From IMG/VR virus record IMGVR_UViG_3300013902_000267: 64,000 bases of DNA. The stretch is one strand, 5' to 3'. The stretch is from a virus. Its lineage: Duplodnaviria; Heunggongvirae; Uroviricota; Caudoviricetes. Below, one piece after another: positions 3,492 through 62,187 of the stretch; position 1 is the first letter of the stretch; the number at the start of each line of letters is the position of its first letter. Below the pieces are notes generated by a model that was given only the letters and a program-made list of their open reading frames with translations, was not told the origin of the DNA and did no database searches. Position numbers and translations under genes: made by a program.

Positions 3492-3934
3492 AATATATAG
3501 TAGAATTTGATGGTAATGATGGCACAGGAAAAACTTATACGATAAAAGTATTATCAAAAGTTTTTTCTAACTGTATTTTTATAGATAGAGGATTATTCAG
3601 TAAAGCAACATTGCTATCAGACGAAAATGATGAAATGTATAAGTATATTGATGATAATATTGATATGAATAGAATTTATATTATATTGGATGATTATCCA
3701 GAACATTGTCAAATGCTTATAAAAAGAAGAGGAGATTCTATTGAAGAGAAATATCATACAATAGAAGATTTAGAGTATTATCGTAAACAATTTACAAACT
3801 TATATGGTTATTGTTGTAAAAAGAATTATGATAATGTTTATTTAGTTACACGATTATTACCAGATCATGTTCAGGTAATGATTGATATTATTAAGAAATT
3901 TACTAATTTTAATAAGGAAAATAATAATGAGTAA
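3473..3934 (+). CDS. P-loop (deoxy)nucleoside monophosphate kinase-like protein
   Basis: Walker A motif EFDGNDGTGKTY is of the thymidylate-kinase type (xDGxxGxGKT). 153 aa. Confidence 0.45.
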   Translation: MGNENVKYIVEFDGNDGTGKTYTIKVLSKVFSNCIFIDRGLFSKATLLSDENDEMYKYIDDNIDMNRIYIILDDYPEHCQMLIKRRGDSIEEKYHTIEDLEYYRKQFTNLYGYCCKKNYDNVYLVTRLLPDHVQVMIDIIKKFTNFNKENNNE

Positions 3935-4577
3935 AATAATTATTGGTACCAGTAATCCAGGTAAGATTAGAGAAATTGCATCTATTCTTTCACCATTAGG
4001 ATATGAGATTGAACCGCATGCATTGGATGTTGATGAAACAGGAAAGACTATTAAAGATAATGCTATTATAAAAGCAAAAGCATATAGTAATGTATTTCCA
4101 GATACTTATGTTATTGCAGAAGATAGTGGATTAGTCGTTCCTAAATTGAATAATCTTCCTGGTCCGTATTCAGCAAGATTTCATGAAATTACAATAGATG
4201 ATAATTTGAATGTTATAAATGTTCCACATGAAGAATTTACTACGGATAAATCTGAACATGATAAACTTAATAATGAGAAGTTGTTGAAGTATATTAAAGA
4301 TATTCCGTTTGATGAGCGTGCAGCATATTTTGAAGTATGTTTTGTCATTGCAAAGAATGGAATTATTCAAGAAACATTTAGTGGTTATTCATATGGTTAT
4401 ATAGCAGATGAATTACGTGGAACAAATGGATTTGGTTATGATCCATTGTTTATTGGTGAGAATACATTTGGTAAGACATATGCAGAACTAGATTCTGCAA
4501 GAAAGAATTTAAAGAGTCACAGAAAGCAAGCATTGAAACAATTGGGCCTTTGGGTTTCACAGAATATAGAGAATTAA
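3927..4577 (+). CDS. non-canonical purine NTP pyrophosphatase (ITPase, Ham1/RdgB family)
   Basis: Start is ATG 3927 (MSKIIIGTSNPGK), overlapping the upstream stop. Family motifs present: TSNPGK, AEDSGL, PGPYSARF, GFGYDPLF, KSHR. Confidence 0.75.
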   Translation: MSKIIIGTSNPGKIREIASILSPLGYEIEPHALDVDETGKTIKDNAIIKAKAYSNVFPDTYVIAEDSGLVVPKLNNLPGPYSARFHEITIDDNLNVINVPHEEFTTDKSEHDKLNNEKLLKYIKDIPFDERAAYFEVCFVIAKNGIIQETFSGYSYGYIADELRGTNGFGYDPLFIGENTFGKTYAELDSARKNLKSHRKQALKQLGLWVSQNIEN

Positions 4578-4583
4578 TAATAT

Positions 4584-5075
4584 ATGAAGAAATTTATTTT
4601 TCCAGGTTCATTTGATCCTTTTACAAATGGGCATAAAGCAATAGTAGATCAGACATATAAATTGTGTGATGAATTTATTATAGCATTAGCGACAAACTTA
4701 AAGAAAGGAGAAGGACTTATTAAACGTCCTGAGCGTATTAAGTTAATTAAAGAGATTTTTAAAGATTATCCGAATGTAAAGGTAATTGATATGACAGATA
4801 CCTTGATTTCTGATTATTGTAAAAAGAATGGAGTTTCTTATATTGTTAGAGGTATCAGAAATTCGGAAGACTTTACATATGAAAAATCATTGGCAGCTAC
4901 TAACCATTATTTGGCAGGTGTAGAAACAATGTTGGTAATGGGTTTTTGCGAACCATATAATATTGATATTTCATCTACATTCGTTAGAGAATTGGTACAT
5001 TATAAATTACCTATTGGTGAGTTTGTTCCACCAGTTGTTGAACAATATATTAAAGATAATAATTTAACATGGTAA
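4584..5075 (+). CDS. phosphopantetheine adenylyltransferase (CoaD)-like class I nucleotidyltransferase
   Basis: FPGSFDPFTNGH is the PPAT-type (T/H)xGH motif. VRGIRNSEDFTYEKSLAATN matches the CoaD RGLRxxxDFEYE block. An NMN/NaMN adenylyltransferase role cannot be excluded. Confidence 0.6.
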   Translation: MKKFIFPGSFDPFTNGHKAIVDQTYKLCDEFIIALATNLKKGEGLIKRPERIKLIKEIFKDYPNVKVIDMTDTLISDYCKKNGVSYIVRGIRNSEDFTYEKSLAATNHYLAGVETMLVMGFCEPYNIDISSTFVRELVHYKLPIGEFVPPVVEQYIKDNNLTW

Positions 5076-5938
5076 ATAAGATTCAAGAAGAAGATTTAAA
5101 AGCAGTTGAGTATTGTAAAACTGTATTATATCCTAAATGGAATATCAAAGATTTGTATTCTATAGATTTTGATACATTTAGAAAAATGCCGTTGGTTGTA
5201 GAAGGTGAAAGTAAAGAGATACGTGCATTGGATGATGATTATTGTATCATTTATTTTAAACCTACAATTTATTCATTTACATATAATAGAACTGGTATTG
5301 TAGAAGGAAGTAATATTCCACGTGTTCATGTAAGTAAAGTATTGTGTGAGTTACTTAAAGAAAATGGTATTAAACATGCATATCTAGATTATGGTGATGA
5401 ATTTGTATTAGCACGCATAATTAAAGATACACCTAATATTGAAGTTGTTGTAAAAGCAAATCATACAGGTACAAGTAAACATAGATATTTTGGTATGGGT
5501 AAATCACATGTAAGAATGTCACATCCATATTATTCGGGAATGAAAATTAAAGACATGGAACCATATCCAGCACCTATTGTAAGATTTGATTGGCGAAATC
5601 CATTTTGGGAACCAAATACACATAAGATGTTAGCTGATGAAGTTATGTGCGATGATCAAGCAGATTATTATATTGATGTTAAGAAAGCAAAGAAAACTGC
5701 AGCACTAACATTCAGTGTATTAAGTGATTTTCTTGCAAGTAAAGATATTGTTATTTATGATTTGTGTTTGTTTATATCAGAAGATGGTGAAACAGTATAT
5801 GGAGAAATTTCACCAGATTGTGGAAGATATAGACATTATGATTTAGGAAGTCTTGATAAGGATGTATGGCGTGCAGGAGGTTCATCAGATCAGGTATTGG
5901 AGAAGTGGAATTTACTGTATAAAATGATTACACAATAA
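5069..5938 (+). CDS. SAICAR synthetase (PurC)-like protein
   Basis: Colinear matches to PurC blocks: VVEGESKEIRALDDD (GKxKxVY...D), VVVKANHTGTSKHRYFG (VVRNRAAGSLVKRLG), and IYDLCLFISEDGETVYGEISPDCGRY (DFKLEFG...GDEFSPDxSR). Confidence 0.55.
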   Translation: MVNKIQEEDLKAVEYCKTVLYPKWNIKDLYSIDFDTFRKMPLVVEGESKEIRALDDDYCIIYFKPTIYSFTYNRTGIVEGSNIPRVHVSKVLCELLKENGIKHAYLDYGDEFVLARIIKDTPNIEVVVKANHTGTSKHRYFGMGKSHVRMSHPYYSGMKIKDMEPYPAPIVRFDWRNPFWEPNTHKMLADEVMCDDQADYYIDVKKAKKTAALTFSVLSDFLASKDIVIYDLCLFISEDGETVYGEISPDCGRYRHYDLGSLDKDVWRAGGSSDQVLEKWNLLYKMITQ

Positions 5939-5940
5939 TT

Positions 5941-6177
5941 ATGAGAAAATACGAATGTGAGATTGAAGATTATCATGGACATTTCTTTCACCATCGGTTT
6001 GAAGCAAACGATGATAATGAAGCGTTGGATAAAGCAAATGACCATGGTTATAGATATTATGCTAATGATGATACTTTATATTATGTAGAAGGAGATTATG
6101 TTGATTATAGTAATATAAGTACAGATCATTATAAAGAGAATATAAAGAAGTACCATCAAATATGGACTTCAATTTAA
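5941..6177 (+). CDS. hypothetical protein (78 aa)
   Basis: Uninterrupted ORF, start coupled to the upstream stop. Confidence 0.45.
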   Translation: MRKYECEIEDYHGHFFHHRFEANDDNEALDKANDHGYRYYANDDTLYYVEGDYVDYSNISTDHYKENIKKYHQIWTSI

Positions 6178-6183
6178 ATAGTA

Positions 6184-6216
6184 TATTTAAAAGTCACTAA
6201 AATAAAAACTTTAGTG
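6184..6216 (+). terminator. rho-independent terminator-like hairpin
   Basis: AAGTCACTAAA-ataaaaa-CTTTAGTGACTT followed by a T-run, directly after the 5941..6177 stop. Confidence 0.55.
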
Positions 6217-6263
6217 ACTTTTTCTATTATTATATATGAATTATAATTTAAACTATAAGATAA

Positions 6264-6647
6264 ATGAATTTAATTACAAATATAAAGAAATCATACAAAC
6301 ATATACCATATACATTTAAACATTGGAAGATGGTATTGAAATTAGAGAAGAAATATATAGGCTATTATAAATATCCTTTTCATGATTTAGATAAATTGTT
6401 CATGTATATATTCTTCCCTTATTTAGGAACAAAGATAATTCAGAAAATTCATACAAAGTTTGCTAATCATCATTTACGTAAATATAAGAAACATATGAAT
6501 TTTGATGAAGCTATTCTTGATTGGGAATCTGCAAGGTTTACAAAACCTGATAAACCATTGGATGCGTGGGATACATATCAAAAATATTTTACGGAATTTT
6601 CAAATGAACTTTTACCTATATTTGAAAAATTTAACTTGAAACATTAA
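6264..6647 (+). CDS. hypothetical protein (127 aa)
   Basis: Uninterrupted ORF. Confidence 0.45.
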   Translation: MNLITNIKKSYKHIPYTFKHWKMVLKLEKKYIGYYKYPFHDLDKLFMYIFFPYLGTKIIQKIHTKFANHHLRKYKKHMNFDEAILDWESARFTKPDKPLDAWDTYQKYFTEFSNELLPIFEKFNLKH

Positions 6648-6869
6648 AGACTTTATTTATATACGTTTATATAAAATACATAATGATTTTGTTTTAGAAG
6701 AACATTTATAAAAACTGTTTTAATAATTAGTGTAAAAGTGAGCACACAGAAAAAGAGAATTATGATAATTTCTGTAGAGCATGGATCAATACCAGCATTA
6801 TATAATGTACAGTTTATAGCAACGAATGTTCGAAATTTAAATTAACTATATGTCTAACATTCTTAATTT

Positions 6870-20642: not shown

Positions 20643-21344
20643 TTATTTTGATAAAGTACAATTATTAAAGAAAGTACAATATGATATATTAACTATATCA
20701 TTATATATAATTGTATCAACAAGTTCATCATATCTCAAAAGAGATGCTATGAAATTTTTATTATTCTGAAATTTAACACCTGGTTGCAATATCTTCGTTT
20801 CATAATGCATCCATATATTAACATTATTAAACTTATTTTTTAATATATCTATATACTTATGATAATCATCAAATGTATTAAATACACCTTTAAATAATGT
20901 ATCTATTATGTTAATATCATTGAAATCAACACTATTTAATAAATTTAATTCATCTGTATTACATGTTTCATATATTACATTATTATCTTTATCATATGAT
21001 TTTGTATTATATAAAATAAGTTGTATATCCTTTTCAGTTGTATTAATTATTTTTATATTTCTAACTATCAACGGACATGATATAATATATGATATAGGAC
21101 ATAGTATGCAGTTCTTTTTAATATTACTATCAAATATTAATGTAACACCACCATCTGAATATTCTATATCATCTATATTATGAACAATATTAATGTTTAT
21201 ATTATAATCATTCTTTTGTTTCTTTAATTTCAGTATATCATCTTTCCATCTTTTGAATTCTAATTCTCTTTGTTCATTTAGAACCTTTGAACCAACAGAT
21301 TCATTATTTACTATGTTATCAAATTCTTCGTCAAATAAATTCAT
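20643..21344 (-). CDS. hypothetical protein (233 aa)
   Basis: Uninterrupted ORF. Confidence 0.5.
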   Translation of the reverse strand: MNLFDEEFDNIVNNESVGSKVLNEQRELEFKRWKDDILKLKKQKNDYNININIVHNIDDIEYSDGGVTLIFDSNIKKNCILCPISYIISCPLIVRNIKIINTTEKDIQLILYNTKSYDKDNNVIYETCNTDELNLLNSVDFNDINIIDTLFKGVFNTFDDYHKYIDILKNKFNNVNIWMHYETKILQPGVKFQNNKNFIASLLRYDELVDTIIYNDIVNISYCTFFNNCTLSK

Positions 21345-21435
21345 ACCTTTTTAAAATTAATCAATAATTATATAGAAAAATGATGAAAAAGTTATATATT
21401 TTCTTAAAAATATTGATATTTTAACAATAAAAAAT

Positions 21436-21467
21436 GATTCCAGTAGAAGTATACTGGAATCATTAAA
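21436..21467. terminator. terminator hairpin downstream of nrdD
   Basis: AATGATTCCAGTA-gaagta-TACTGGAATCATT immediately 3' of the nrdD stop (minus strand). Confidence 0.5.
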
Positions 21468-21489
21468 ATATTAAAATAAAATAGTTAAA

Positions 21490-21579
21490 TTAAATATTTT
21501 CTTTTGGTAAATAAACACGTGTCTTTTGTTCTTTCTGACGTCCATCAGACCAATTCGAAATTTTAGTTAAATCACAATA
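21490..21579 (-). CDS. nrdD: nrdD exon 6 (approximate)
   Basis: YCDLTKISNWSDGRQKEQKTRVYLPKENI*. Joined to exon 5 it gives RIIG-YCDL...NWSDGRQ, matching the class III RNR RVCGYLG...NFNPGK...RV C-terminus. Confidence 0.5.
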   Translation of the reverse strand, partial: YCDLTKISNWSDGRQKEQKTRVYLPKENI

Positions 21580-21818
21580 TACCCGAACTTTCATTCTATT
21601 TTAAAGGGGTTAGACTATACCACTAACTTCTTGAGTTACATCTTGGTAGTCGTTGAGGGCTTTTATTTGTTTCGTATCAAATAACTATCCCTGCTGATTA
21701 TCCATTGTTATATCATTAGAATTTTTACACTTTGGTATCTAATGCTTTAGGAACTTCCAGCATATTCGATGTTTGCTATATATGTCACCATATATAGGGG
21801 CATTTAATTAAAAATTTA
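21580..21818 (-). mobile_element. group I intron 5 in nrdD (ORF-less, about 240 nt)
   Basis: Minus-strand CTCAACGACTACCAAGATG (R) and GGTATAGTCTAACCCC (S). It splits the glycyl-radical motif between RIIG and YCDL. Confidence 0.55.
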
Positions 21819-22152
21819 CCCGATTATTCTGTCATATAAACTTACATGAACTGATCCACACTTTGGACATACACTAAATGGTGTCTTTGAAATATATCCA
21901 CAATCTTCACATTTACAATTAGGAACATTAAATGTCCAATATTGACAACCATTCTCTGCCGCAAATTTCATAATGTGAACAATCTGTTTCTTAGACAAGT
22001 GCTCTGACAAATTGAGATGCGCTGCTGAACCACCATCCAAAAAATCTCCAATATAGTTCTTACCATGTAAGGTAATCTTATCAAAGATTGACAATGTTTT
22101 ATCATTTGGTTTGAATATGTAAGACGCATACAGGTTAGTGTCTGTTGGTACC
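21819..22152 (-). CDS. nrdD: nrdD exon 5 (approximate)
   Basis: ...NCKCEDCGYISKTPFSVCPKCGSVHVSLYDRIIG is the zinc ribbon plus the start of the glycyl-radical motif. The ORF-track start is TTG. Confidence 0.5.
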
Positions 22153-22191
22153 CAATCAACTCTGTTACATGATTACATAATAATTTTAATA

Positions 22192-22479
22192 TTATTGTTG
22201 AATGTAATCTGATTTATTAATATATTCATTTAGATTTATTAAACCTGCATGAATTTTCCTATGACAATTTGAACATACACATACACATTTTTTTATTTCT
22301 TCATATAGTTTTTCTTTACCTCTCCCTCGATGTTTACCTATTGTAAAATCTTTTTCATTTGGATCTATATGATGAAAATCTATACAACATGGTTCATATT
22401 CACTACATATTATACATGGATTCTTTAATGAATATAACCATTCTGTTTTTCTTTTTTGTGAACGCTTATTTTTGTTCAT
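22192..22479 (-). CDS. small HNH endonuclease (95 aa)
   Basis: CIICS...FHHIDP...CSNCHRKIH HNH / zinc-finger motif. Confidence 0.6.
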   Translation of the reverse strand: MNKNKRSQKRKTEWLYSLKNPCIICSEYEPCCIDFHHIDPNEKDFTIGKHRGRGKEKLYEEIKKCVCVCSNCHRKIHAGLINLNEYINKSDYIQQ

Positions 22480-22612
22480 TATGTATTTCAGGATGTGCTT
22501 TTCTCATCTATTTCCTATATAATTTTCTACATTCTTTACATACTGCACGTCCTTTTTCAAACATTTCTATAGACAATTCTTTACCACATTTATTACATAT
22601 TTTTGTTGTCAT
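22466..22612 (-). CDS. small zinc-ribbon ORF (48 aa, 1 in-frame TAG), possibly an N-terminal extension of the HNH protein
   Basis: MTTKICNKCGKELSIEMFEKGRAVCKECRKLYRK(Q)MRKAHPEIHNEQK. It overlaps the HNH start in another frame. Confidence 0.3.
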
Positions 22613-22912
22613 ATATATTAAATTATGTTTTATTATTTATCACCGGAACATGACAAAAATAACATAACCCAATTATATTAATAAACGCTTAATTATTTCT
22701 AATCAAGTCTCTATGTTACCATAGAGTTCGGACTATTGCATAGTTTTGTTTCACAACAAAACTCCTTTTTATTTAGTCTCTCAGGCTGCCCATAACATTG
22801 TTGTTATTGCTTGCCCCTCGTTATCCTTACTACCGGTACCTAAGGTAATAAAATGTAAGGAACTTCGAGTCAATTAAAAAAGGTTTTACATGGACATTGT
22901 TATTGTTGTCTA

Positions 22913-23395
22913 TCCATCTTCAGAATCCCAATTATAATTCTTTATTGCCAAACTTTCAGCTGGTATACATTCAGTATTGAACGTTAACTTATGACCGTTA
23001 AATGTACCTGCAGCTTCTTGATTCTTTTGCTTTATATATCCAAATATTGTTTGACAAAGTTTTTCATAATGAGGATTTACATTACAAGTAATTCCTAAGA
23101 ATTCTGCCATTTGATTAAGACCATTCAAACCAATTGTTAAATATTGCTTATTCAAATTAATAAACCCTGCTTTATATACAGGTAATAATCCTGCGTCATA
23201 CATATCCCAAAGAAGTTCATTATATGCTGTATGATATTTATATACTCTATCAAGAATATTACCAAAATATTCGCACATATCATCATAATGCTCTTCTACA
23301 TTTTCTTTTGTTACTCCAGATTTCTTAACACTGTTAAACCAGTCTTGAGTTATGCGACTAAGATTCAGGGTTATCACACTTTTACTTCCTGTTTG
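22913..23395 (-). CDS. nrdD: nrdD exon 4 (approximate)
   Basis: ...RKRQTGSKSVITLNLSRITQDW...LNKQYLTIGLNGLNQMAEFLGI...FNTECIPAESLAIKNYNWDSEDG. The exon ORF stops at a TAG beside the intron. The ORF-track start is GTG, not a true initiator. Confidence 0.5.
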
Positions 23396-24600
23396 ACGTT
23401 TTCTCCATATATTTCTATATGGTCCGGGTCATATCTTATGTTTATTTAAATAATAAACATTGCACTATTTCGGCATTTAAAACGATTCGTTTCCTAAAAC
23501 GTTACTACGTATCAATAGTAGTCCTACTCCACCTGCTCATCACTTAGGGGATGACCTCCACACACATTAATAATTTTTATATGTTCTACCTATTAACATA
23601 TTCCTAAAATTATTCATTAAATAATTTTTATATTTACCGATTTTTAATTCTTCAATAGATTTGCCATTATTATATTGTTCTCTTAAATAAACAACTTCAT
23701 CTTTAGATAACAATGGTAACTTCTATTTACATTTATCAGTTCTAATAGGCATTTTTACATGCATATATGATTTTCCAAATAATATTTTATTAAATCCACT
23801 CCATGAATATAAATTACTATATTCTTTAAAAATATCATCTTCTTTTTCACCATTTACAAAATATCTTATTCTTATGTTTAATACTTCTTCATCAGATAAA
23901 TTCTTAGAATTTGCATGCATATTTCCTCTACGTGTTCTTCGATCTGATTTATAAAAATCATTTACTTTATCTGTATTATATTCTATACCAATTTCAGGTC
24001 TTGTATAATAATGCCAATATTTTGAAAATCCACTTTTTGACATTCTATCTTTATACATTTCATATACTTCTCCAAAAGTATATTTCATAGAATAACGTAT
24101 TTTTCTTAATTCTAATAATTCATTATCATTTAATATTGCTTTGGGATGCTCCTCCCCAACTTTTATTATAGTTGCAGAATGTCCACCCAATGTAGAATTA
24201 TATCCATTATTATAACTATCATATAATTTAATGTAATATATTTCTTTATTATCAGCTTCATCCTAATTAGGAACATTATCTTCTAATATTGAAAAATTTG
24301 ATTCATTAATATTATATTTTCTCATTGCTCTATATAATTTATAATCACTATGTTTCATATCATTTAAATGTTCTCTTACTCTTATATGATAATGATGTGT
24401 CTACCCAATATATACTTTTCCATTAGGAAATGATATTTTATAAATTGTAAATATTTTATTCATATATTATAAATGTAAAATTATAACATATTTATATTAA
24501 CTTGGCTCGGTATTACCATGCATATAGTTTCACAACTTATGTTTAGGCTTCACCGATGCATTAATATCGCTATATTAATACATTGCTTGATTAGCAATTA
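23396..24600 (-). mobile_element. group I intron 3 in nrdD, carrying a GIY-YIG endonuclease ORF
   Basis: R-like GGAGTAGGACTAC and S-like AAGATATGACCCGG on the minus strand near 23425-23530, 3' of the ORF. Confidence 0.5.
23723..24463 (-). CDS. GIY-YIG homing endonuclease (246 aa), 2 in-frame TAG
   Basis: N-terminal IYKISFPNGKVYIG(Q)T...RVREH GIY-YIG motif, with a TAG inside the YIGxT block. C-terminal GEEHPKAILNDNELLELRKIRY DNA-binding module. ORF 23723..24190 is only its C-terminal part. Confidence 0.65.
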
Positions 24601-25440
24601 AGCACATAAAGGACCCAAGTTGATCCCTAAATTTCCATTTGTGAAGTTGAATTCCTTTGTTTGTATCTTATTCTTAAGTCTGCAGTTATGTGTTATATTT
24701 CCATTAGGCATTAAGAAATATGGTTCAAGATTCTTATCGCAGAGTTCTACACAATAATAATCTTTTGGTTCATCAAGATTTACAACTTCAACCTTTGTAA
24801 TTTTTCTTATAACAATGTCTTGATCTACATCTTTAAAATCATTTCTAAACATACCCATATATTGTCCATACTCAAAGATAAGTTGATCTCCTGTTTGAAG
24901 CAAATATGCTTGCTTATCTTTAATCATCTTATCATCATCAATAATAGGGAATATATGATCCGGTGTAACTCTCATTACATTTCGTGATTCATCCGGATTA
25001 AAATCGTCTGGAGCGAAATAAATTCTTACTTCTTGAACTGCTTCTGCTTTTACAAACTTAGCATTTACCCATTCACCTGTACATTTACCTGTTGTACCAT
25101 TAAAATTCATATGATATACATTAATAATTTCATCCTTATGCTTTTCATATGCATTTTTAAATGACTCAACCATATATGCGTTTGAACCTGCGTTTTCTTC
25201 CATATTACAAGGTTCTACATACATGAATGGAGTATCACCATCGAAACAACAACTTGATAATGAATCAACTGTATCTGACATATATGTAAAGAATGAATGA
25301 CCTCTTGCATATTCATCCGCCACAAAATCTGCAGATTCCTTATCAAGGAATTCTCCATCCTTATATACTAATGCGAAACTTTCCCATTTATATTCTATAT
25401 AGTTCGTTACACTATATACGTTCATAATAATGAACTGCTT
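24601..25440 (-). CDS. nrdD: nrdD exon 3 including a mini-intein (approximate boundaries)
   Basis: ...GHSFFTYMSDTVDSLSSC, then the intein, then CRLKNKIQTKEFNFTNG... Removing the intein reconstitutes SCCRL. Confidence 0.5.
24685..25248 (-). mobile_element. mini-intein (188 aa) inserted at the nrdD SCCRL active-site motif
   Basis: Begins with Cys1 in CFDGDT (intein block A). Ends ...DYYCVEL...PYFLMPNGNITHN (blocks F and G, terminal HN), immediately followed by extein Cys (CRL). No endonuclease domain is visible. Confidence 0.6.
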
Positions 25441-26214
25441 TATGTTACCATAAAGATTAGACTATATCACAATCCTATAAATATAGGATTCTCCCCATTT
25501 CCACTCACTTGAGTGTACTTCCTTTCGGAATAGTCGTTGAACCTTATTATATAAATGAATATTTATGACCATAATATAATCTATTTGCATTTATCGATTT
25601 TACTAATCCTGATATACATGCAGTTCCTCCAATATTTTTAATAACTTCGGACATTGATGAATATATTATATTATTATCTAAACATTTTATTTTCTTTGGA
25701 AACGTTTTTCCCTTCATCGTATTACCAAATGTTTTAATAGAATATAATTCATTCTCTGATTGTGTGCACCATTCTAAATTATCTACTCTATTATCTGATC
25801 TATTACCATTTAAATGATTTACAAATGGTTTATTTTCAGGATTTGGTATAAATTCTTGAGCAACAAGTCTATGACATAAATATCTAGTTTTAATAGAATT
25901 TTGCATTAATGATATTCTTAAATAACCATCTAATGTATATTCTACTTTTAATGGTTTACCTTTATACGGACGTAATCCACCCCATCTACAAGGCACCATT
26001 CTATCTTTACTTCTGAAATTACCTAAATTACTAACTTCAAATGCGCCATCATATCCTGTTATACTTTTCCAAATTTCTTCCATAATATTCTCTTATATAA
26101 TCTTGGTTGCTGATTATCTAATAACTTCGCATATTTATTAGAGTTCCCAGCAGTTAAAGGAGTTTTTCAATAATAAATTACTTTATTATGCCGCAGATTG
26201 ATTTACGGGGAAGG
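25441..26214 (-). mobile_element. group I intron 2 in nrdD, carrying an HNH endonuclease ORF
   Basis: R-like GTTCAACGACTATTCC and S-like GTGATATAGTCTAATC on the minus strand at 25450-25535. Confidence 0.55.
25547..26083 (-). CDS. HNH homing endonuclease with NUMOD4-like N-terminus (178 aa)
   Basis: WKSITGYDGAFEVSNLGNFRS (NUMOD4-like). NHLNGNRSDNRVDNLEW is an HNH_3-type motif. Confidence 0.65.
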   Translation of the reverse strand: MEEIWKSITGYDGAFEVSNLGNFRSKDRMVPCRWGGLRPYKGKPLKVEYTLDGYLRISLMQNSIKTRYLCHRLVAQEFIPNPENKPFVNHLNGNRSDNRVDNLEWCTQSENELYSIKTFGNTMKGKTFPKKIKCLDNNIIYSSMSEVIKNIGGTACISGLVKSINANRLYYGHKYSFI

Positions 26215-26452
26215 TGATTATCGTACGAAGACGTTCCTTATTAAACCATATCATGAAGTCTTTCTGTAACCATGAAACACTTTCCCAACATGGTCTTGTT
26301 CCTTCTTCATCAGGAAATACAAATTCACCAAACATACCTTCAAAGAACGGTTTATCAAAATAAGAGAAATTTACAACATTTTTTCTTCTACATAAATCGT
26401 TACTTTATGTACGTTACTATTTGTAACTGCTCTATGATTTCCATAGACGATT
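26215..26452 (-). CDS. nrdD: nrdD exon 2 (approximate)
   Basis: Open frame ...NVVNFSYFDKPFFEGMFGEFVFPDEEGTRPCWESVSWLQKDFMIWFNKERLRTIITFPV between two intron cores. Confidence 0.4.
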
Positions 26453-27839
26453 AACGAATTTCACGTTAAAAGGGTTTGTTTAAACCGTTTAGACTATATC
26501 ACCAAATTTAATTTTCTTAAATTTGCACCTACACTTCCATAACACTTGTTATGTACTCTACTAACTCATTTAAAGTTTTCGATAGTCGTTGAACTTTTAT
26601 CCTTGTAGGATAATTAGCTGCGTATGATTACCCAATCTTTATCGTTTTTACAATCTGATAGCCGTTATACTATCTGCTACTATCTATGTTACCATGATAT
26701 GCTGTAGATAAAGCTCTAAGGGACTTCCCGCAATTCAAGGTGTTTATTAACGTCAGCACATGTAATTTCTCTTATAATTTAATTATTACCAAAATTATGT
26801 ATTTTATACATGTGACAATTTTTACAATATGTTATAAGATTATCTATGTTATTAAGTTCTTTATTTTTTATCGCTAAATTAAATAATTCATCAAAATTAT
26901 CAGTAGGATTTAATTCTGGATGTTCTGATAATAAATTATGAAATAATATTTTAAATGGAACTATATGATGAACTTGAAGATTTTCATGACAACCGCATAG
27001 CTAACAAGTATTATGATCTCTCTCTATAACTTCTGGAACTAATCGATTAAAATATGTTCTTATTTTATTACCTAATCTTGTAGTATCTGTTGTATATGGA
27101 ATATTAGTAATATTTAAACTATTTAATACTCTATTAATTACAGCTATTGTACAATTATATCTCCGTGCCAATTCTGTTTTTGATATTGACTATTCAATAT
27201 ATAAATTATATAATTTTTTATAATCATTAAAATCTTCTGGTATTTCTTTTTTATGATAATTCCACATAGATTCTGCAAAAGTACGTCTTTTAATCCCATT
27301 ATGTTTTAAATGACTTCTTATAGTAGTTGCTGAACAGTTAAATATTTTACCTATTTCTACTGTAGATTTACCATCATTATATAATTTTATTATTTCCTAA
27401 TCATTTGTATCATCATATTGTTCATAAACTTCATAATTAGTATTTTTTATATTATATTTTTTAAAATATCTATTAATAGTACCTTTATGACATTTATATA
27501 TTTCTGAAATTTCTTTCATTGTTAAACCATTATTAACATAATTTATTAAATCTTCTTTTTTAATTATTAATTTAGATTTTTCAATATTCCATTTTCTTAA
27601 ATATTCTTTAATATTTGCTAATGTTGTATTTCCTTCTTTAGCACACTATTTTCGTGTTAAACCTTTAATAACATAATTTTCATATAACCAATCTCTATCT
27701 TTTGTAAAATATCTATAATTAGACATAATTTCAGATATGTAAAATTACATACAGGATTATGTAATTTTTAATTTATTTTAGTTTATGCTGACTATAATCC
27801 TCTGGAGGCCGCAGGTTGGTTAATTGAATACACGACCTA
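26453..27839 (-). mobile_element. group I intron 1 in nrdD, carrying an HNH homing endonuclease ORF
   Basis: Minus-strand AATTGCGGGAAG (P element), GTTCAACGACTATCG (R) and GGTGATATAGTCTAAAC (S) lie 3' of the ORF. Confidence 0.6.
26779..27726 (-). CDS. HNH homing endonuclease (315 aa) with repeated HTH modules; 4 in-frame TAG
   Basis: C-terminal C(Q)LCGCHENLQVHHIVPF...NLITYCKNCH HNH motif, where the first CxxC includes a TAG codon. Three GxxxxEIxxxxxxxxxTI HTH-like repeats. ATG at 27726, TAA at 26779. Confidence 0.65.
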
Positions 27840-28901
27840 TTGAAAGAATTGTTGAATACATGAACCAATAGTTCTTGTACCATCACCTATCTTAATAGGA
27901 TTCGTAAAATCTTTTATTGAACCTTCAACATCATATTGTGATAATTCTTTCTCATATGCTTCAAGTTCTTCATCTGTTAACTCTCTTTCTGAATTATAAA
28001 CAAGTTCATCACGAAGTTTGTTTAATTCGTCTGAACCAAAATCATGTTTTCTCAATGTATCTACATCTTTACACCAATAATTAGATTCATTAAGAAGTTT
28101 CCTATATTTAGGCCCAATCTTATAAAATTCTTTACTATGCAAATGATAATCTTCACCAAACTCTTTTCTTGCAAAATAATCAAAATAAACAAGAAATTCC
28201 GATGTTGCAACTGCACCTGCAAATTGAGCAGCAACTGCAAATACAAGATTTACATACATACCACAATAAGAATCAAGATTTTGTGGATGACATGAAAGAC
28301 CTCCTATTTTTTCTAAACCATTATGAAGGAATGGATACATAGTTATACTTGTGCAATACGGACTTATGGCACCAGCGAAGCTAGACTCATCGTTCTTATA
28401 TATAATATGGTTTTTTAAATCTTTTTGATATTGTTTTGCTTTAAAATTTGGATATAGTTCTTTAAGTTTCCTTGTAATCATACCTCTGCTTACAAGAATA
28501 TTATCAGCTTTATGAATTTCAGCATTTAATACACCGATATTCTTAGAAGAAACATTAGAATTATCATCTACAGTACTATTTGCAGTATTAGATGCATTCT
28601 TATATCTTTCAATAAATGCTTCCTTATTAGCAACCCATTCTCTAATTTCCTTTTTCTTGTTACGATAAAGAATAAATTCTTTCGCAACTTTAGGATAATC
28701 ATGAGAATACAAACTTGTTTCAATTTGATCCTGTATTTCCTCTACAGGAATACCATCATATGGTGTTATTGAGTTTGCAATATTAGCTATAGTATCTTTA
28801 GTATACTTAGTTTTCGTAGACTTAAACGCCTCACGAATCGCTCGTTTAACTGTCTAAACACTATAGTTCTCAAAACTACCATCACGTTTCGTTACCTTCA
28901 T
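27840..28901 (-). CDS. nrdD: nrdD exon 1 (approximate 3' boundary)
   Basis: ATG at 28901. ATP-cone, then the YCTSITMYPFLHNGLEKIGGLSCHPQNLDSYCGMY region. Contains in-frame TAG. The exon ORF closes at a TAG next to the intron. Confidence 0.55.
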
Positions 28902-29038
28902 ACTTAGTTTTCTTTCTATTTTATTTTTGGTAAAATATTTATTCTCGACTATGAGAATTTTTCAAAATATTATTTTATATATTATATAAAAAAATGCAAA
29001 TGAAGTCTTATAACAAACATCATTTGCATTAAAATATT

Positions 29039-29758
29039 TTAATTATTTTTAAAAATTTTTTCTTTCCAATAATTAAAGTCAATATCTTTGATTTGATATT
29101 GAATTAAATTTCCAGTTAATACATCAGAAAGTTTTACAGGTTTATAATCATTTCCATCAACACCAACATCATATGTCATTGCTTTTTCTTTTAATTTCTT
29201 AGCAATATTTGCATCTGTACCTGTATATGTTTCAACATTCTTTGGTGTATGCAGATGTCCATGTATATTGAACTTTCCTAAAAATTGACCATCACAATGT
29301 GGATAATGTGAAACTGTAAATTGAAGAATTATTTTATCTTTATAATCGTCATATATTTGTACAATAAGTTCTGTACTCCAATATACTTTACTATTCTCAT
29401 TATATGGCATCATATTCCTTCTTTGCAATACATTCTTTACATCATGATTTCCAATAATATTATAAATCTTTTCAGCATTAATATTATTAACCATTTCATC
29501 ATATGTACTTACATTACTAAATATAAAATCACCACAATTTATAAGTATTGGATTAACGCATTCAGATAAAGTTTCATTAAGATTATCAAATAAAACTTTA
29601 TTCATTTCTTGTACATCTTTAAATGGTCGATTACAATATTTTATTATATTTGCATGATTTGCATGTATATCACTAGTAAAAAATATTCTATTTATATCAG
29701 ATACTTTAAACTTTAATATATGCGGCCCCATTACTACTGTTTTCTTTTCTTGCTTCAT
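29039..29758 (-). CDS. calcineurin-like metallophosphoesterase
   Basis: Motifs DIHANH, GDF, GNHD, HGHLH. Confidence 0.65.
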   Translation of the reverse strand: MKQEKKTVVMGPHILKFKVSDINRIFFTSDIHANHANIIKYCNRPFKDVQEMNKVLFDNLNETLSECVNPILINCGDFIFSNVSTYDEMVNNINAEKIYNIIGNHDVKNVLQRRNMMPYNENSKVYWSTELIVQIYDDYKDKIILQFTVSHYPHCDGQFLGKFNIHGHLHTPKNVETYTGTDANIAKKLKEKAMTYDVGVDGNDYKPVKLSDVLTGNLIQYQIKDIDFNYWKEKIFKNN

Positions 29759-62091: not shown

Positions 62092-62187
62092 TGGATATAG
62101 ATGGACTCGAACCACCATGTATCTGCCCTAGAATTATGATACAAACTAACATCATATTAGTCGCGTTTACCATTTCGCCATATATCC
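62092..62187 (-). tRNA. class II (long variable arm) tRNA, 95 nt, tentatively Ser(UGA)-like
   Basis: Acceptor GGATATA/TATATCC. D arm GCG(A)-AATGGTAA-(A)CGC. Anticodon stem ACTAA/TTAGT with loop TATGATG (anticodon TGA but A at position 33). Variable arm TGTATC-14 nt-GATACA. T arm GGTGG-TTCGAGT-CCATC. Alternative folds are possible. Confidence 0.5.

What the first reader, a model, noticed from the sequence alone, without database searches (positions are those of the whole stretch)
22153..27839. Four intron-borne homing endonucleases of two families (three HNH, one GIY-YIG) in nrdD, all using TAG codons
Each of introns 1-4 encodes an endonuclease: HNH with triple HTH repeats (26779-27726); HNH with a NUMOD4-like N-terminus (25547-26083); GIY-YIG (23723-24463); and a minimal HNH (22192-22479) plus a zinc-ribbon ORFlet. 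The TAG usage shows they are translated by the phage's recoded system, not recent imports from a standard-code source.
Basis: partly seen in the sequence, partly recalled or inferred. Interest (0 to 1): 0.6.

Follow-up and report, generated by a model that had tools for sequence, protein, structure and literature searches.

The report
Intron homing endonuclease genes in Lak nrdD
The anaerobic ribonucleotide reductase gene of a Lak megaphage (Prevotella phage Lak-B7) is interrupted by five self-splicing introns and an intein, and four of the introns carry homing endonuclease genes. This is an ordinary kind of selfish DNA, notable here for its density and because two of the genes can only be read in the phage's altered genetic code.

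Summary
The window is Prevotella phage Lak-B7. Its nrdD gene runs on the minus strand from 28901 to 21490. It is split by five introns (I1-I5) and also holds a 188-aa mini-intein. Splicing at U|...G| boundaries restores one 985-aa open reading frame. Each intron is precisely absent from at least one other Lak genome.

Profile searches confirm all four endonuclease genes:
- **HEG1:** four HTH repeats plus a zinc-finger HNH domain.
- **HEG2:** NUMOD4 plus HNH_3.
- **HEG3:** GIY-YIG. Its ORF runs to 23567, not 23723.
- **HEG4:** the "minimal HNH" and the zinc-ribbon ORFlet are two halves of one gene, broken by a +1 frameshift.

"All using TAG" is wrong. HEG1 has 4 in-frame TAG codons, HEG3 has 3 and the zinc-ribbon half has 1. 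HEG2 and the HNH half have none.

Where TAG occurs it is a sense codon for Gln. It aligns to the invariant Gln of CQLCG and to the Gln most relatives have in YIGQT. It never co-occurs with in-frame TAA or TGA. dN/dS is 0.13-0.16. An exon tract linked to I1 swaps CAA for TAG.

The HEG2/I2 family sits at the same nrdD site in phage contigs with no in-frame TAG, so "not an import" cannot be shown for it.

Verdict: real, partly mis-described, and a new member of a known kind.

The parts
27785..28901 (-). nrdD exon 1 (ATP-cone and N-terminal NRDD part). It has in-frame TAG at codons 16, 355 and 370.
   Evidence: Codon 370 is TAG in B7 and C1 but CAA in Lak-A1.
26377..27784 (-). Intron I1 (1408 nt), a group I intron. 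The 5' exon ends in U and the intron ends in G. P1 is formed by exon GUCAGCAU and guide GUGCUGAC (26759-26752). The ribozyme core lies at 26789-26471.
   Evidence: Absent from Lak-A1. Rfam Intron_gpI 28.3 bits, E 2e-5 in a restricted search. P1 shows two compensatory double changes in L012.
26779..27726 (-). HEG1, 315 aa: four HTH repeats plus a zinc-finger HNH domain. TAG codons start at 27648, 27399, 27192 and 27003. The gene lies in loop L1 of intron I1.
   Evidence: dN/dS 0.125 against the Lak-C1 copy.
26205..26376 (-). nrdD exon 2
25385..26204 (-). Intron I2 (820 nt), a group I intron. The endonuclease ORF lies in the P6 loop.
   Evidence: Absent from Lak-A1, A2 and C1. Its 3' half is 81-85% identical to Herelleviridae introns that score 88-97 bits for Intron_gpI. 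The consensus fold has 51 pairs, 28 with compensatory changes.
25547..26083 (-). HEG2, 178 aa: NUMOD4 plus HNH_3 (same domain pair as I-HmuI). No TAG codon.
24623..25384 (-). nrdD exon 3, which contains the mini-intein at 24685-25248.
24685..25248 (-). Mini-intein, 188 aa (Cys1 ... His-Asn | Cys+1), inserted in SSC|CRL. It has no endonuclease domain.
   Evidence: (Intein_splicing 5.6e-6, below the cut-off)
23397..24622 (-). Intron I3 (1226 nt), probably group I. Visible elements: P1 AGGGAU/GUCCUU, P4-P6 motifs, J8/7-like AAGAUAUGACC, and a P9 hairpin with a GAAA loop.
   Evidence: Absent from Lak-C1. Rfam is not significant. Conserved and covarying helices appear in L019/L020 and A1.
23567..24463 (-). 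HEG3, 298 aa: a GIY-YIG endonuclease with a long C-terminal region. TAG codons start at 24403 (the Q of YIGQT), 24265 and 23725.
   Evidence: dN/dS 0.16 against Lak-A1.
22912..23396 (-). nrdD exon 4
22157..22911 (-). Intron I4 (755 nt), a group I intron. The core lies at 22921-22709 and the ORFs lie downstream of P9.
   Evidence: Absent from Lak-B3, B5, B6, A1, A2 and C1. Rfam Intron_gpI 42.6 bits over the full model, E 8e-10 in a restricted search.
22466..22612 (-). HEG4a: the zinc-ribbon N-terminal half of a zinc-ribbon-HNH endonuclease. One TAG codon starts at 22510. It ends at a TAA after CAAAAA.
   Evidence: phrog_2255 positions 52-98. Aligns with the N-termini of crAss001 gp8 and SUSP1 HNH.
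22192..22479 (-). HEG4b: the HNH catalytic half (95 aa), in the +1 frame relative to HEG4a. No TAG codon.
   Evidence: phrog_2255 positions 96-175, E 1e-22. The frameshift is identical in Lak-B1 and B2.
21818..22156 (-). nrdD exon 5, ending in ...YDRIIG (the glycyl-radical Gly).
21573..21817 (-). Intron I5 (245 nt), an ORF-less group I intron in the Tyr codon that follows the glycyl-radical Gly.
   Evidence: Absent from Lak-A1, A2 and C1. Partial Rfam Intron_gpI hit, 24 bits, E 2.6e-4.
21490..21572 (-). nrdD exon 6 with its TAA stop.

Best explanation
The finding lies in the nrdD gene (class III ribonucleotide reductase) of Prevotella phage Lak-B7.

**Structure.** The gene has been colonised by five group I introns and one mini-intein. 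Introns I1-I4 each carry a free-standing homing endonuclease gene on the same strand:
- **HEG1:** four HTH repeats plus a zinc-finger HNH, in loop L1.
- **HEG2:** NUMOD4 plus HNH_3, in the P6 loop.
- **HEG3:** GIY-YIG, apparently in the P6 loop.
- **HEG4:** zinc-ribbon plus HNH, downstream of P9, now split by a +1 frameshift.

**Inferred mechanism.**
1. The introns self-splice from the nrdD transcript and restore a 985-aa precursor. Protein splicing then removes the intein to give a 797-aa NrdD.
2. The endonucleases are translated from their own start codons.
3. In mixed infections they cut intron-less nrdD alleles near the insertion site.
4. Recombinational repair copies the intron and a short stretch of flanking exon into the cut allele.

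**Genetic code.** HEG1 and HEG3 can only be made when TAG is read as Gln, so they depend on the Lak code change. They have evolved within TAG-recoded phages. HEG2 carries no such mark and belongs to an intron/HEG family shared with phage contigs that show no TAG recoding. HEG4 is probably decaying.

**Shown versus inferred.**
- Shown: boundaries, presence/absence, families, TAG as sense, purifying selection, and exon tracts linked to the introns.
- Inferred: splicing, cleavage and homing activity.
For: **Source and gene**
- The window is 100% identical to Lak-B7.
- Exons joined at U|...G| boundaries give one ORF. It matches NRDD at 1e-80 plus ATP-cone, and aligns across every junction with T. 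maritima NrdD, PDB 4COI.
- All five breaks fall inside codons. Reading on unspliced meets TAA or TGA within 0-9 codons.

**Presence/absence among Lak genomes**

| Genome | Introns present |
|---|---|
| A1 | I3 only |
| C1 | I1 only |
| A2 | I3 plus another intron 43 nt upstream of the I1 site |
| B3, B5, B6 | I1, I2, I3, I5 (no I4) |
| B7 | all five |

**Group I evidence**
- Rfam: I4 42.6 bits, I1 28.3 bits, I5 24 bits.
- I2 is homologous to bona fide introns, with 28 compensatory pairs.
- The I1 P1 helix covaries with its exon.

**Endonuclease families:**

**TAG is a sense codon**
- Q242 in CQLCG is invariant. YIGQT has Gln in most homologs.
- The frames hold 0 TAA/TGA but 4 and 3 TAG, while off-frame stops are mostly TAA.
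- dN/dS is 0.125 and 0.16.
- The A1 copy of HEG3 has 6 TAG, three at new sites.

**Mobility**
- C1 and A1 exons differ at 28 nt. Eleven of these lie in the 18 nt 5' of the I1 site, where C1 equals B7. The changes are all synonymous if TAG = Gln.
- Seven more differences flank the I3 site.
- HEG dS (0.11 and 0.48) is well below exon dS (0.89).
- Homologs of HEG1, HEG2 and HEG3 all sit inside split nrdD genes of other phages.
Against: - No RNA data were available, so splicing is not demonstrated.
- Rfam scores for I1, I4 and I5 are below the family's gathering score of 50 bits and were obtained only in restricted searches. The whole-window search found nothing.
- I3 has no significant Rfam match.
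- The Pfam GIY-YIG score is 0.4 bit below the cut-off.
- HEG4 is frameshifted in all six genomes that carry I4, so at least one of the four is probably not an active enzyme.
- The synonymous cluster 5' of I1 overlaps the exon half of P1. It could therefore reflect selection for splicing as well as co-conversion.
Confidence: 0.85

Rival explanations
1. The TAG-containing endonuclease ORFs are decaying pseudogenes. On this view TAG is a true stop there, and the ORFs are relics of past invasions.
For: - HEG4 is frameshifted.
- The homing-cycle model predicts that an endonuclease gene decays after its intron becomes fixed (my own knowledge).
- HEG1 and HEG3 would be truncated to 26 and 20 aa under the standard code.
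Against: - The frames contain only TAG and never TAA or TGA across 315 and 298 codons, although off-frame TAA outnumbers TAG about 4:1.
- dN/dS over the whole frames is 0.125 and 0.16.
- TAG aligns with Gln in homologs.
- The host gene nrdD itself needs TAG read-through at codon 16 and at a conserved Gln, which is CAA in Lak-A1.
Confidence: 0.05
2. The insertions are not introns. They would be free-standing endonuclease cassettes that split nrdD into separately translated pieces, as in some T4-like phages with split nrdA or gene 39.
For: - Gene callers on related contigs report separate NRDD fragments.
- In Jug phages one nrdD gap showed no splicing reads.
Against: - All five breaks fall within codons.
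- There are no start codons at the fragment starts. Exon 2 is only 57 aa and exon 6 only 27 aa.
- Boundaries follow the U|...G| rule.
- Group I cores are detected or covary.
- I5 has no ORF at all.
Confidence: 0.04
3. I2 with HEG2 was acquired by the Lak-B lineage comparatively recently from a phage that uses the standard code. This is the opposite of the first reader's claim for this element.
For: - HEG2 has no TAG.
- Among the 15 published Lak genomes, I2 occurs only in Lak-B. It also occurs in one Lak-like contig.
- The same intron with a 65-71% identical HEG sits at the identical site ..TTCCCCGT|AAA.. in contigs L015 and L017, which have no in-frame TAG in 11 genes each.
- The I2 core is 81-85% identical to introns of Staphylococcus, Bacillus and Enterococcus phages.
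Against: - HEG2 has only three Gln codons. At 19% TAG usage, zero TAG has a probability of about 0.5.
- The nearest non-Lak-like HEG is only about 72% identical.
- Against L015, the HEG's nucleotide identity (70%) is no higher than that of the flanking exons (63-70%). Nothing therefore dates the transfer as recent.
Confidence: 0.3
4. The break in HEG4 is a programmed +1 ribosomal frameshift at CAA-AAA-UAA-G. On this view a full zinc-ribbon-HNH enzyme is still made.
For: - The shift site is an A-run followed by a stop codon.
- The same sequence is found in six independently assembled genomes.
- I4 is polymorphic among Lak-B genomes with identical flanks.
Against: - The six genomes are nearly identical over I4, so a shared sequence is uninformative.
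- No stimulatory element was identified.
- Homologs are plain single ORFs.
- Lak-B genomes recombine extensively, which can spread or remove an intron without an active enzyme.
Confidence: 0.07

Closest known systems
Phage T4 nrdD (sunY) group IA intron encoding I-TevII
   Same: The host gene is the same. It is a group I intron carrying a free-standing homing endonuclease of the GIY-YIG family, like HEG3. The extra intron of Lak-A2 interrupts the homologous Tyr codon (T|AT) at the T4 site.
   Different: - T4 has one intron; Lak-B7 has five plus an intein.
- None of the B7 introns is at the T4 site. I1 lies 43 nt downstream of it.
- HEG3 shows no significant pairwise similarity to I-TevII (best E 0.075) and sits at a different site.
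- The Lak endonuclease genes contain recoded TAG.
I-HmuI / I-HmuII-type NUMOD4 + HNH_3 intron endonucleases of Bacillus phages SPO1/SP82, and the Herelleviridae group I introns
   Same: HEG2 has the NUMOD4 + HNH_3 architecture. The I2 ribozyme core is 81-85% identical over about 125 nt to Herelleviridae introns that score 88-97 bits for Intron_gpI.
   Different: The host gene (nrdD) and the host phage (a Bacteroidota megaphage) differ. Protein identity to Firmicutes-phage HNH_3 proteins is at most 47%. Nicking activity is assumed from the family and was not tested.
Fragmented nrdD of Jug phages and intron/intein-rich genes of crAss-like phages
   Same: These are gut Bacteroidota phages with nrdD split by group I introns, HNH and GIY-YIG endonuclease genes and inteins. 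Splicing was confirmed there by metatranscriptomes (PMC12880540).
   Different: Jug phages use the standard code. Here two of the endonuclease genes require TAG=Gln. I found no paper describing the Lak nrdD introns.
Recoded group I intron endonuclease of Agate phages (Borges et al., bioRxiv 10.1101/2021.08.26.457843)
   Same: An intron-borne endonuclease gene in an alternatively coded gut phage that is enriched in the reassigned stop codon. It was proposed to delay endonuclease production. HEG1 and HEG3 likewise use TAG for 7 of 10 Gln-type codons, against 3 of 33 in the nrdD exons.
   Different: The codon (TGA to Trp there, TAG to Gln here) and the phage clade differ. Here the host gene nrdD also carries TAG at codon 16, so recoding cannot separate endonuclease timing from NrdD timing.
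crAss001 gp8 and Felixounavirus/Suspvirus zinc-ribbon-HNH endonucleases (phrog_2255)
   Same: The conceptually fused HEG4 aligns end to end at 38-42% identity, with conserved CxxC...CxxC, HH and CxxCH...H motifs.
   Different: Those proteins are single, free-standing ORFs, often among tRNA genes. HEG4 is intron-borne and split by a +1 frameshift.

Membership tests
HNH endonuclease (beta-beta-alpha-metal fold; Pfam PF01844/PF13391): HEG1 | Profile match, plus the CxxC...HH...N...CxxCH...H motif | tested here: met
   - HNH_2 at 26.9 bits (cut-off 21) and HNH at 21.6 bits (cut-off 21.4).
- phrog_8446 at 3e-31.
- C241, Q242, L243, C244, G245, H253, H254, N296, C301, C304, H305 and H310 are invariant in 12 homologs.
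HNH_3 / NUMOD4 homing endonucleases (I-HmuI-like): HEG2 | An N-terminal NUMOD4 motif followed by an HNH_3 domain | tested here: met
   - NUMOD4 at 53.3 bits (cut-off 23.4) and HNH_3 at 44.8 bits (cut-off 24.8).
- phrog_59 at 8e-39.
- All 120 homologs listed, of 7360 found, carry both domains.
GIY-YIG nuclease (PF01541): HEG3 | Profile match | tested here: inconclusive
   - The Pfam score is 22.2 bits against a cut-off of 22.6, E 1.7e-4.
- phrog_5123 'homing endonuclease with GIY-YIG motif' scores 4e-13 and phrog_7168 scores 3.5e-20.
- Most homologs carry a precomputed PF01541 match.
GIY-YIG nuclease (PF01541): HEG3 | The catalytic set: GIY Tyr, YIG Tyr, Arg, His, Glu and Asn | tested here: met
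   Y8, Y18, G20, R28, H32, E74 and N89 are invariant in a 13-sequence alignment. The equivalence to I-TevI residue numbers is from my own knowledge.
Zinc-ribbon-HNH endonuclease (phrog_2255): HEG4 | A single polypeptide with an N-terminal CxxC...CxxC ribbon and a C-terminal HNH | tested here: not met
   Both halves match adjacent parts of the same profile (positions 52-98 and 96-175). They lie in different frames, and the first half ends at a TAA. The sequence is related to this family, but the gene is not intact.
Group I intron (Rfam RF00028) | A covariance-model score at or above the gathering score (50 bits) | tested here: not met
   - The whole-window and 7.8-kb searches found nothing.
- Restricted searches gave I4 42.6 bits, I1 28.3, I5 24 and I3 8.7.
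- Long ORF insertions defeat the model.
- I2 could not be scored without its ORF, because custom sequences cannot be submitted.
Group I intron | U at the end of the 5' exon paired to G in P1, G at the intron 3' end, and P3-P9 core helices supported by covariation | tested here: met
   - U and G boundaries hold for all five introns.
- P1 helices with a U-G pair are found for I1, I3 and I4, with covariation for I1.
- The I2 core has 51 pairs, 28 compensatory, aligned with introns that score 88-97 bits.
- I3 is supported only by conserved motifs and a few covarying helices.
Group I intron | Self-splicing of the RNA | not testable with these tools
   No transcript data were available.
Homing endonuclease (mobile intron) | Intron-plus and intron-minus alleles in related genomes, with precise boundaries | tested here: met
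   Each of I1-I5 is precisely absent from at least one Lak genome.
Homing endonuclease (mobile intron) | Co-conversion of flanking exon sequence, and intron/HEG divergence lower than host-gene divergence | tested here: met
   - Eleven of the 28 C1-A1 exon differences lie within 18 nt 5' of the I1 site, where C1 equals B7. Seven more flank the I3 site.
- HEG dS is 0.105 and 0.475, against an exon dS of 0.89.
- No such signature exists for I4 (flanks identical). It was not examined for I2 or I5.
Homing endonuclease (mobile intron) | Site-specific cleavage of the intron-less allele | not testable with these tools
   This needs biochemistry.
Intein (noticed in passing) | Cys/Ser at position 1, a C-terminal His-Asn followed by Cys/Ser/Thr, and a splicing-domain profile | tested here: inconclusive
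   The sequence runs C...HN|C, and removing it restores the conserved SCCRL loop. Pfam Intein_splicing scores 26.7 bits against a cut-off of 35.8.

The most novel reading that the evidence does not exclude
The strong TAG bias of HEG1 and HEG3 is not just drift inside a recoded genome. The counts are 7 of 10 Gln-type codons in B7, 6 of 7 in the Lak-A1 copy of HEG3, and 9 of 16 in the Lak-A2 intron's endonuclease gene, against 3 of 33 in the nrdD exons. On this reading it is a selected gate that ties endonuclease translation to the level of the phage's TAG-suppressor tRNA. That would limit cleavage of phage DNA to a particular stage, or to cells where the code switch is complete. As a lesser variant, the HEG4 break would be a programmed +1 frameshift used the same way.
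Probability: 0.2. Interest if true: 0.6.

Novelty: new member of a known kind. Interest (0 to 1): 0.4.

Why it matters
- **Annotation.** The GenBank Lak records carry no annotation, and the Lak papers report only tRNA introns. This analysis gives exact exon, intron and intein coordinates for an essential nucleotide-metabolism gene that gene callers would report as six or more fragments. The Lak preprint also reports large, highly expressed intergenic regions; I did not test whether any of them are introns of this kind.
- **Genetic code.** It gives clean within-family evidence that TAG means Gln. Alleles swap TAG and CAA at a conserved Gln, and TAG sits at an invariant catalytic-motif Gln.
- **Natural experiment in intron homing.** Lak genomes together show six insertion sites and presence/absence in every combination sampled. 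Co-conversion tracts define candidate target sites.
- **Link to Agate phages.** The TAG enrichment in two endonuclease genes parallels a published observation in Agate phages and makes the "recoding gates selfish nucleases" idea testable.
- **Kind.** None of this is a new type of element.

Tried and rejected
- **Rfam on large stretches.** Gathering threshold on the whole window and E<=10 on 21300-29100 gave no intron hit. Only searches restricted to the ORF-free parts of single introns gave Intron_gpI matches.
- **Rfam on I3.** Two restricted searches failed. I then relied on manual motifs and alignment with I3-type introns from L019/L020. My assignment of P7 in I3 remains uncertain, and L021 does not support either candidate pairing.
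- **NCBIfam.** It gave nothing useful for HEG2-HEG4.
- **BLASTP self-comparison of HEG1.** It did not detect the HTH repeats. A small profile built from three repeats did.
- **Recent transfer of I2.** I looked for a sign that I2 moved recently between Lak-B and the non-recoded contig L015. HEG and exon identities are similar, so there is no such sign.
- **Suppressor tRNA.** I looked for a tRNA with anticodon CUA in the window and found none. Only Gln-CUG, Lys-UUU and an odd 96-nt tRNA-like gene are present.
- **Paralogs.** I found no paralogs of the four endonuclease genes elsewhere in the window.
- **T4 coordinates.** My first guess at the T4 nrdD coordinates was wrong, and so was my recollection that its intron encodes I-TevIII. 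The record says I-TevII.

Full report
**Source and gene**

The region 21400-29000 is 100% identical to Prevotella phage Lak-B7 (MK250026.1) and 99-99.9% identical to the other Lak-B genomes. The GenBank records carry no annotation.

I translated the minus strand with TAG kept open. This gave six pieces of an anaerobic ribonucleotide reductase, separated by stretches that hold the four reported ORFs.

**Boundaries from intron-less alleles**

I aligned the window against Lak-B3, A1, A2 and C1. Each intervening sequence turned out to be precisely absent from at least one relative.

| Intron | Window coordinates | Length | Absent from |
|---|---|---|---|
| I1 | 27784-26377 | 1408 nt | A1 |
| I2 | 26204-25385 | 820 nt | A1, A2, C1 |
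| I3 | 24622-23397 | 1226 nt | C1 |
| I4 | 22911-22157 | 755 nt | B3, B5, B6, A1, A2, C1 |
| I5 | 21817-21573 | 245 nt | A1, A2, C1 |

- In all five cases the upstream exon ends in U and the intron ends in G.
- All five breaks lie inside a codon. Reading on without splicing meets TAA or TGA within nine codons.
- Joining the exons gives a single 985-aa frame with three TAG codons.
- Removing a 188-aa Cys...His-Asn|Cys mini-intein from the SSC|CRL loop leaves 797 aa. This product matches Pfam NRDD at 1e-80 plus ATP-cone, and aligns across every junction with Thermotoga NrdD, PDB 4COI.
- I5 splits the Tyr codon right after the glycyl-radical Gly (RIIG|YL).

**Are they group I introns?**

Rfam found nothing on the whole window or on 7.8 kb. 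Restricted searches on ORF-free parts did better:
- **I4:** 42.6 bits over the whole model, E 8e-10, at 22921-22709. The P1 helix falls at the mapped splice site.
- **I1:** 28.3 bits, E 2e-5, with the typical AAUUGCGGGAA, CAACGACUA and GAUAUAGUCUAA elements.
- **I5:** 24 bits, E 2.6e-4, a partial match.
- **I3:** nothing significant.
- All of these scores are below the family's gathering score of 50 bits.

Other lines of evidence:
- **I2.** Its 3' half is 81-85% identical to unannotated DNA in Staphylococcus, Bacillus and Enterococcus phages. That DNA lies in split genes and scores 88-97 bits for Intron_gpI.
- **I2 covariation.** I aligned I2 with its ORF removed against these introns and against I2-type introns from three metagenomic contigs. 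The consensus fold has 51 pairs, 28 with compensatory changes. The ORF sits in the P6 loop.
- **I1 P1 helix.** Exon GUCAGCAU pairs with guide GUGCUGAC, which lies after HEG1, so the ORF is in loop L1. A Lak-like contig (L012) has GUCUGCUU paired with GAGCAGAC, which is two compensatory double changes.
- **I3.** It has a P1 with a U-G pair, P4-P6-like motifs, a conserved AAGAUAUGACC element and covarying hairpins shared with L019/L020. I rate it only as a probable group I intron.

**The four endonuclease genes**

*HEG1 (27726-26779, 315 aa)*
- Pfam HNH_2 and HNH are above their cut-offs, with several HTH families also matching. phrog_8446 scores 3e-31.
- A profile built from three HTH repeats finds a fourth copy at residues 15-48.
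- Homologs of similar length are numerous in metagenomes. The HNH zinc-finger residues are invariant among them.

*HEG2 (26083-25547, 178 aa)*
- It has a clear NUMOD4 + HNH_3 architecture.
- More than 7000 homologs were found.

*HEG3*
- It starts at 24463 and runs through three TAG codons to the TAA at 23567 (298 aa).
- Pfam GIY-YIG is 0.4 bit under its cut-off. PHROG matches range from 4e-13 to 3.5e-20.
- Most homologs carry PF01541, and the catalytic Tyr, Tyr, Arg, His, Glu and Asn are invariant.

*HEG4*
- The 95-aa ORF (22479-22192) has no Pfam hit but matches phrog_2255 positions 96-175 at 1e-22. The zinc-ribbon ORFlet matches positions 52-98 of the same profile.
- A conceptual fusion aligns end to end with the single-ORF HNH proteins of crAss001 (gp8) and phage SUSP1.
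- The two halves are separated by a +1 shift at CAAAAA-TAA-G. The shift is identical in the two other I4-carrying genomes I compared, Lak-B1 and Lak-B2.
- I therefore read HEG4 as one gene that is broken, probably decaying.

**TAG usage**

| ORF | In-frame TAG | CAA |
|---|---|---|
| HEG1 | 4 | 2 |
| HEG2 | 0 | 3 |
| HEG3 | 3 | 1 |
| Zinc-ribbon half of HEG4 | 1 | 1 |
| HNH half of HEG4 | 0 | 3 |

None of the five ORFs has a CAG codon. So "all using TAG" is not correct.

Where TAG occurs it behaves as a Gln codon:
- HEG1 codon 242 aligns with an invariant Gln in CQLCG.
- HEG3 codon 21 aligns with the Gln of YIGQT in most homologs.
- nrdD codon 370 is TAG in B7 and C1, CAA in A1, and Gln in Thermotoga NrdD.
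- No TAA or TGA interrupts either long frame, although off-frame TAA is about four times as common as TAG.
- dN/dS is 0.125 for HEG1 (B7 against C1) and 0.16 for HEG3 (B7 against A1).
- The A1 copy of HEG3 has six TAG codons, three at new positions. The endonuclease gene of the extra Lak-A2 intron has nine.

HEG1 and HEG3 together use TAG for 7 of 10 Gln-type codons. The nrdD exons use it for 3 of 33 (Fisher p = 3.5e-4), and the window as a whole for 19%. This echoes the recoded intron endonuclease that Borges et al. reported in Agate phages. However, nrdD itself has TAG at codon 16, so recoding cannot separate endonuclease timing from NrdD timing here.

**Evidence of mobility**
- The exons of C1 and A1 differ at only 28 of 2958 positions. 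Eleven of these fall in the 18 nt just upstream of the I1 site.
- In that tract the I1-bearing C1 is identical to the I1-bearing B7: TCC AGA GGA TTA TAG TCA, against AGT CGT GGT CTG CAA TCT in A1. All changes are synonymous if TAG is Gln.
- Seven more differences flank the I3 site and again group alleles by intron status.
- Part of the I1 tract is the exon strand of P1. Selection for splicing may therefore contribute alongside co-conversion.
- Synonymous divergence of the endonuclease genes (0.105 and 0.475) is far below that of the exons (0.89).
- I4 is polymorphic within Lak-B with identical flanks. Given the broken HEG4, the extensive recombination reported among Lak-B genomes may explain that polymorphism as well as homing does.

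**Wider distribution**
- Homologs of HEG1 (64% identity), HEG2 (91%, 71% and 65%) and HEG3 (55% and 49%) all lie between NRDD fragments in other contigs.
- The I2-type intron sits at exactly the same site (..TTCCCCGT|AAA..) in L015 and L017. Each of those contigs has eleven called genes with no in-frame TAG.
- For HEG2 the claim "not an import from a standard-code source" therefore cannot be made. Nothing dates a transfer as recent either.
- L015 also carries an intron with an HNH_3 ORF at the I5 site.
- The extra intron of Lak-A2 interrupts the Tyr codon homologous to the one split by the T4 nrdD intron, which encodes I-TevII.

**Literature and novelty**
- The Lak papers describe an alternative code and tRNA introns. 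They do not mention introns, inteins or endonuclease genes in nrdD.
- nrdD split by group I introns and endonuclease genes is known in T4 and in Jug phages. Intron- and intein-rich genes are known in crAss-like phages.
- This is therefore a new, well-resolved member of a known kind. It is of moderate interest, mainly for its density (five introns plus an intein in one gene, with a sixth site in a sister genome) and for the TAG-dependent endonuclease genes.

Noticed in passing
window 24685-25248 (-): A 188-aa mini-intein (Cys1...His-Asn|Cys+1) without an endonuclease domain. It is inserted in the SSC|CRL loop of NrdD and is present in all Lak alleles examined. Its dN/dS against A1 is 0.15.
   Followed up: partly
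window 21573-21817 (-); L015 about 5735-6680: The ORF-less intron I5 splits the Tyr codon after the glycyl-radical Gly (RIIG|YL). In an unrelated contig with no TAG recoding, the same site holds an intron with a 243-aa HNH_3 ORF.
   Followed up: partly
L002 (Lak-A2) about 3667-5036; L024 (T4) 4813-5845: Lak-A2 has a sixth nrdD intron site 43 nt upstream of I1. Its endonuclease gene encodes a 345-aa HTH-repeat/HNH protein with 9 TAG codons. It interrupts T|AT of the Tyr codon homologous to the one interrupted by the T4 nrdD intron that encodes I-TevII.
   Followed up: partly
window 26752-26759 and 27785-27792 (-); L012: The guide sequence of I1 lies downstream of the HEG1 ORF, so the whole 948-nt ORF sits in loop L1 of the ribozyme. 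The P1 helix covaries with the exon in a Lak-like contig.
   Followed up: yes
window 22902-22907: The only difference in I4 between Lak-B7 and Lak-B1/B2 is an extra 6-nt AACAAT tandem copy, 5-10 nt into the intron and inside the P1 loop.
   Followed up: no
window 62092-62187 (-): Rfam calls a 96-nt tRNA (45 bits) that ARAGORN does not report. It has a long extra arm or insert (UGUAUC...GAUACA). It may be one of the intron-containing or unusual tRNAs reported for Lak phages. No tRNA with anticodon CUA is present in the window.
   Followed up: partly
window 29039-29758 (-): A Metallophos-like phosphoesterase ORF lies directly upstream of nrdD. The same neighbour occurs in the Lak-like contigs L012 and L016, which is useful for recognising Lak relatives.
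   Followed up: no
L005 (Staphylococcus phage CF5) 1777-2909: Four consecutive Rfam group I intron hits (50-97 bits) within about 1.1 kb, next to an 'intron encoded nuclease'. This is another densely invaded phage locus, and one of its introns is the nearest nucleotide relative of the I2 core.
   Followed up: no
L019/L020 (metagenomic contigs): A very heavily fragmented nrdD (ATP-cone piece, several small NRDD pieces, a GIY-YIG endonuclease gene with recoded stops, and further ORFs) in another recoded phage lineage. It may hold even more insertions than Lak-B7.
   Followed up: no
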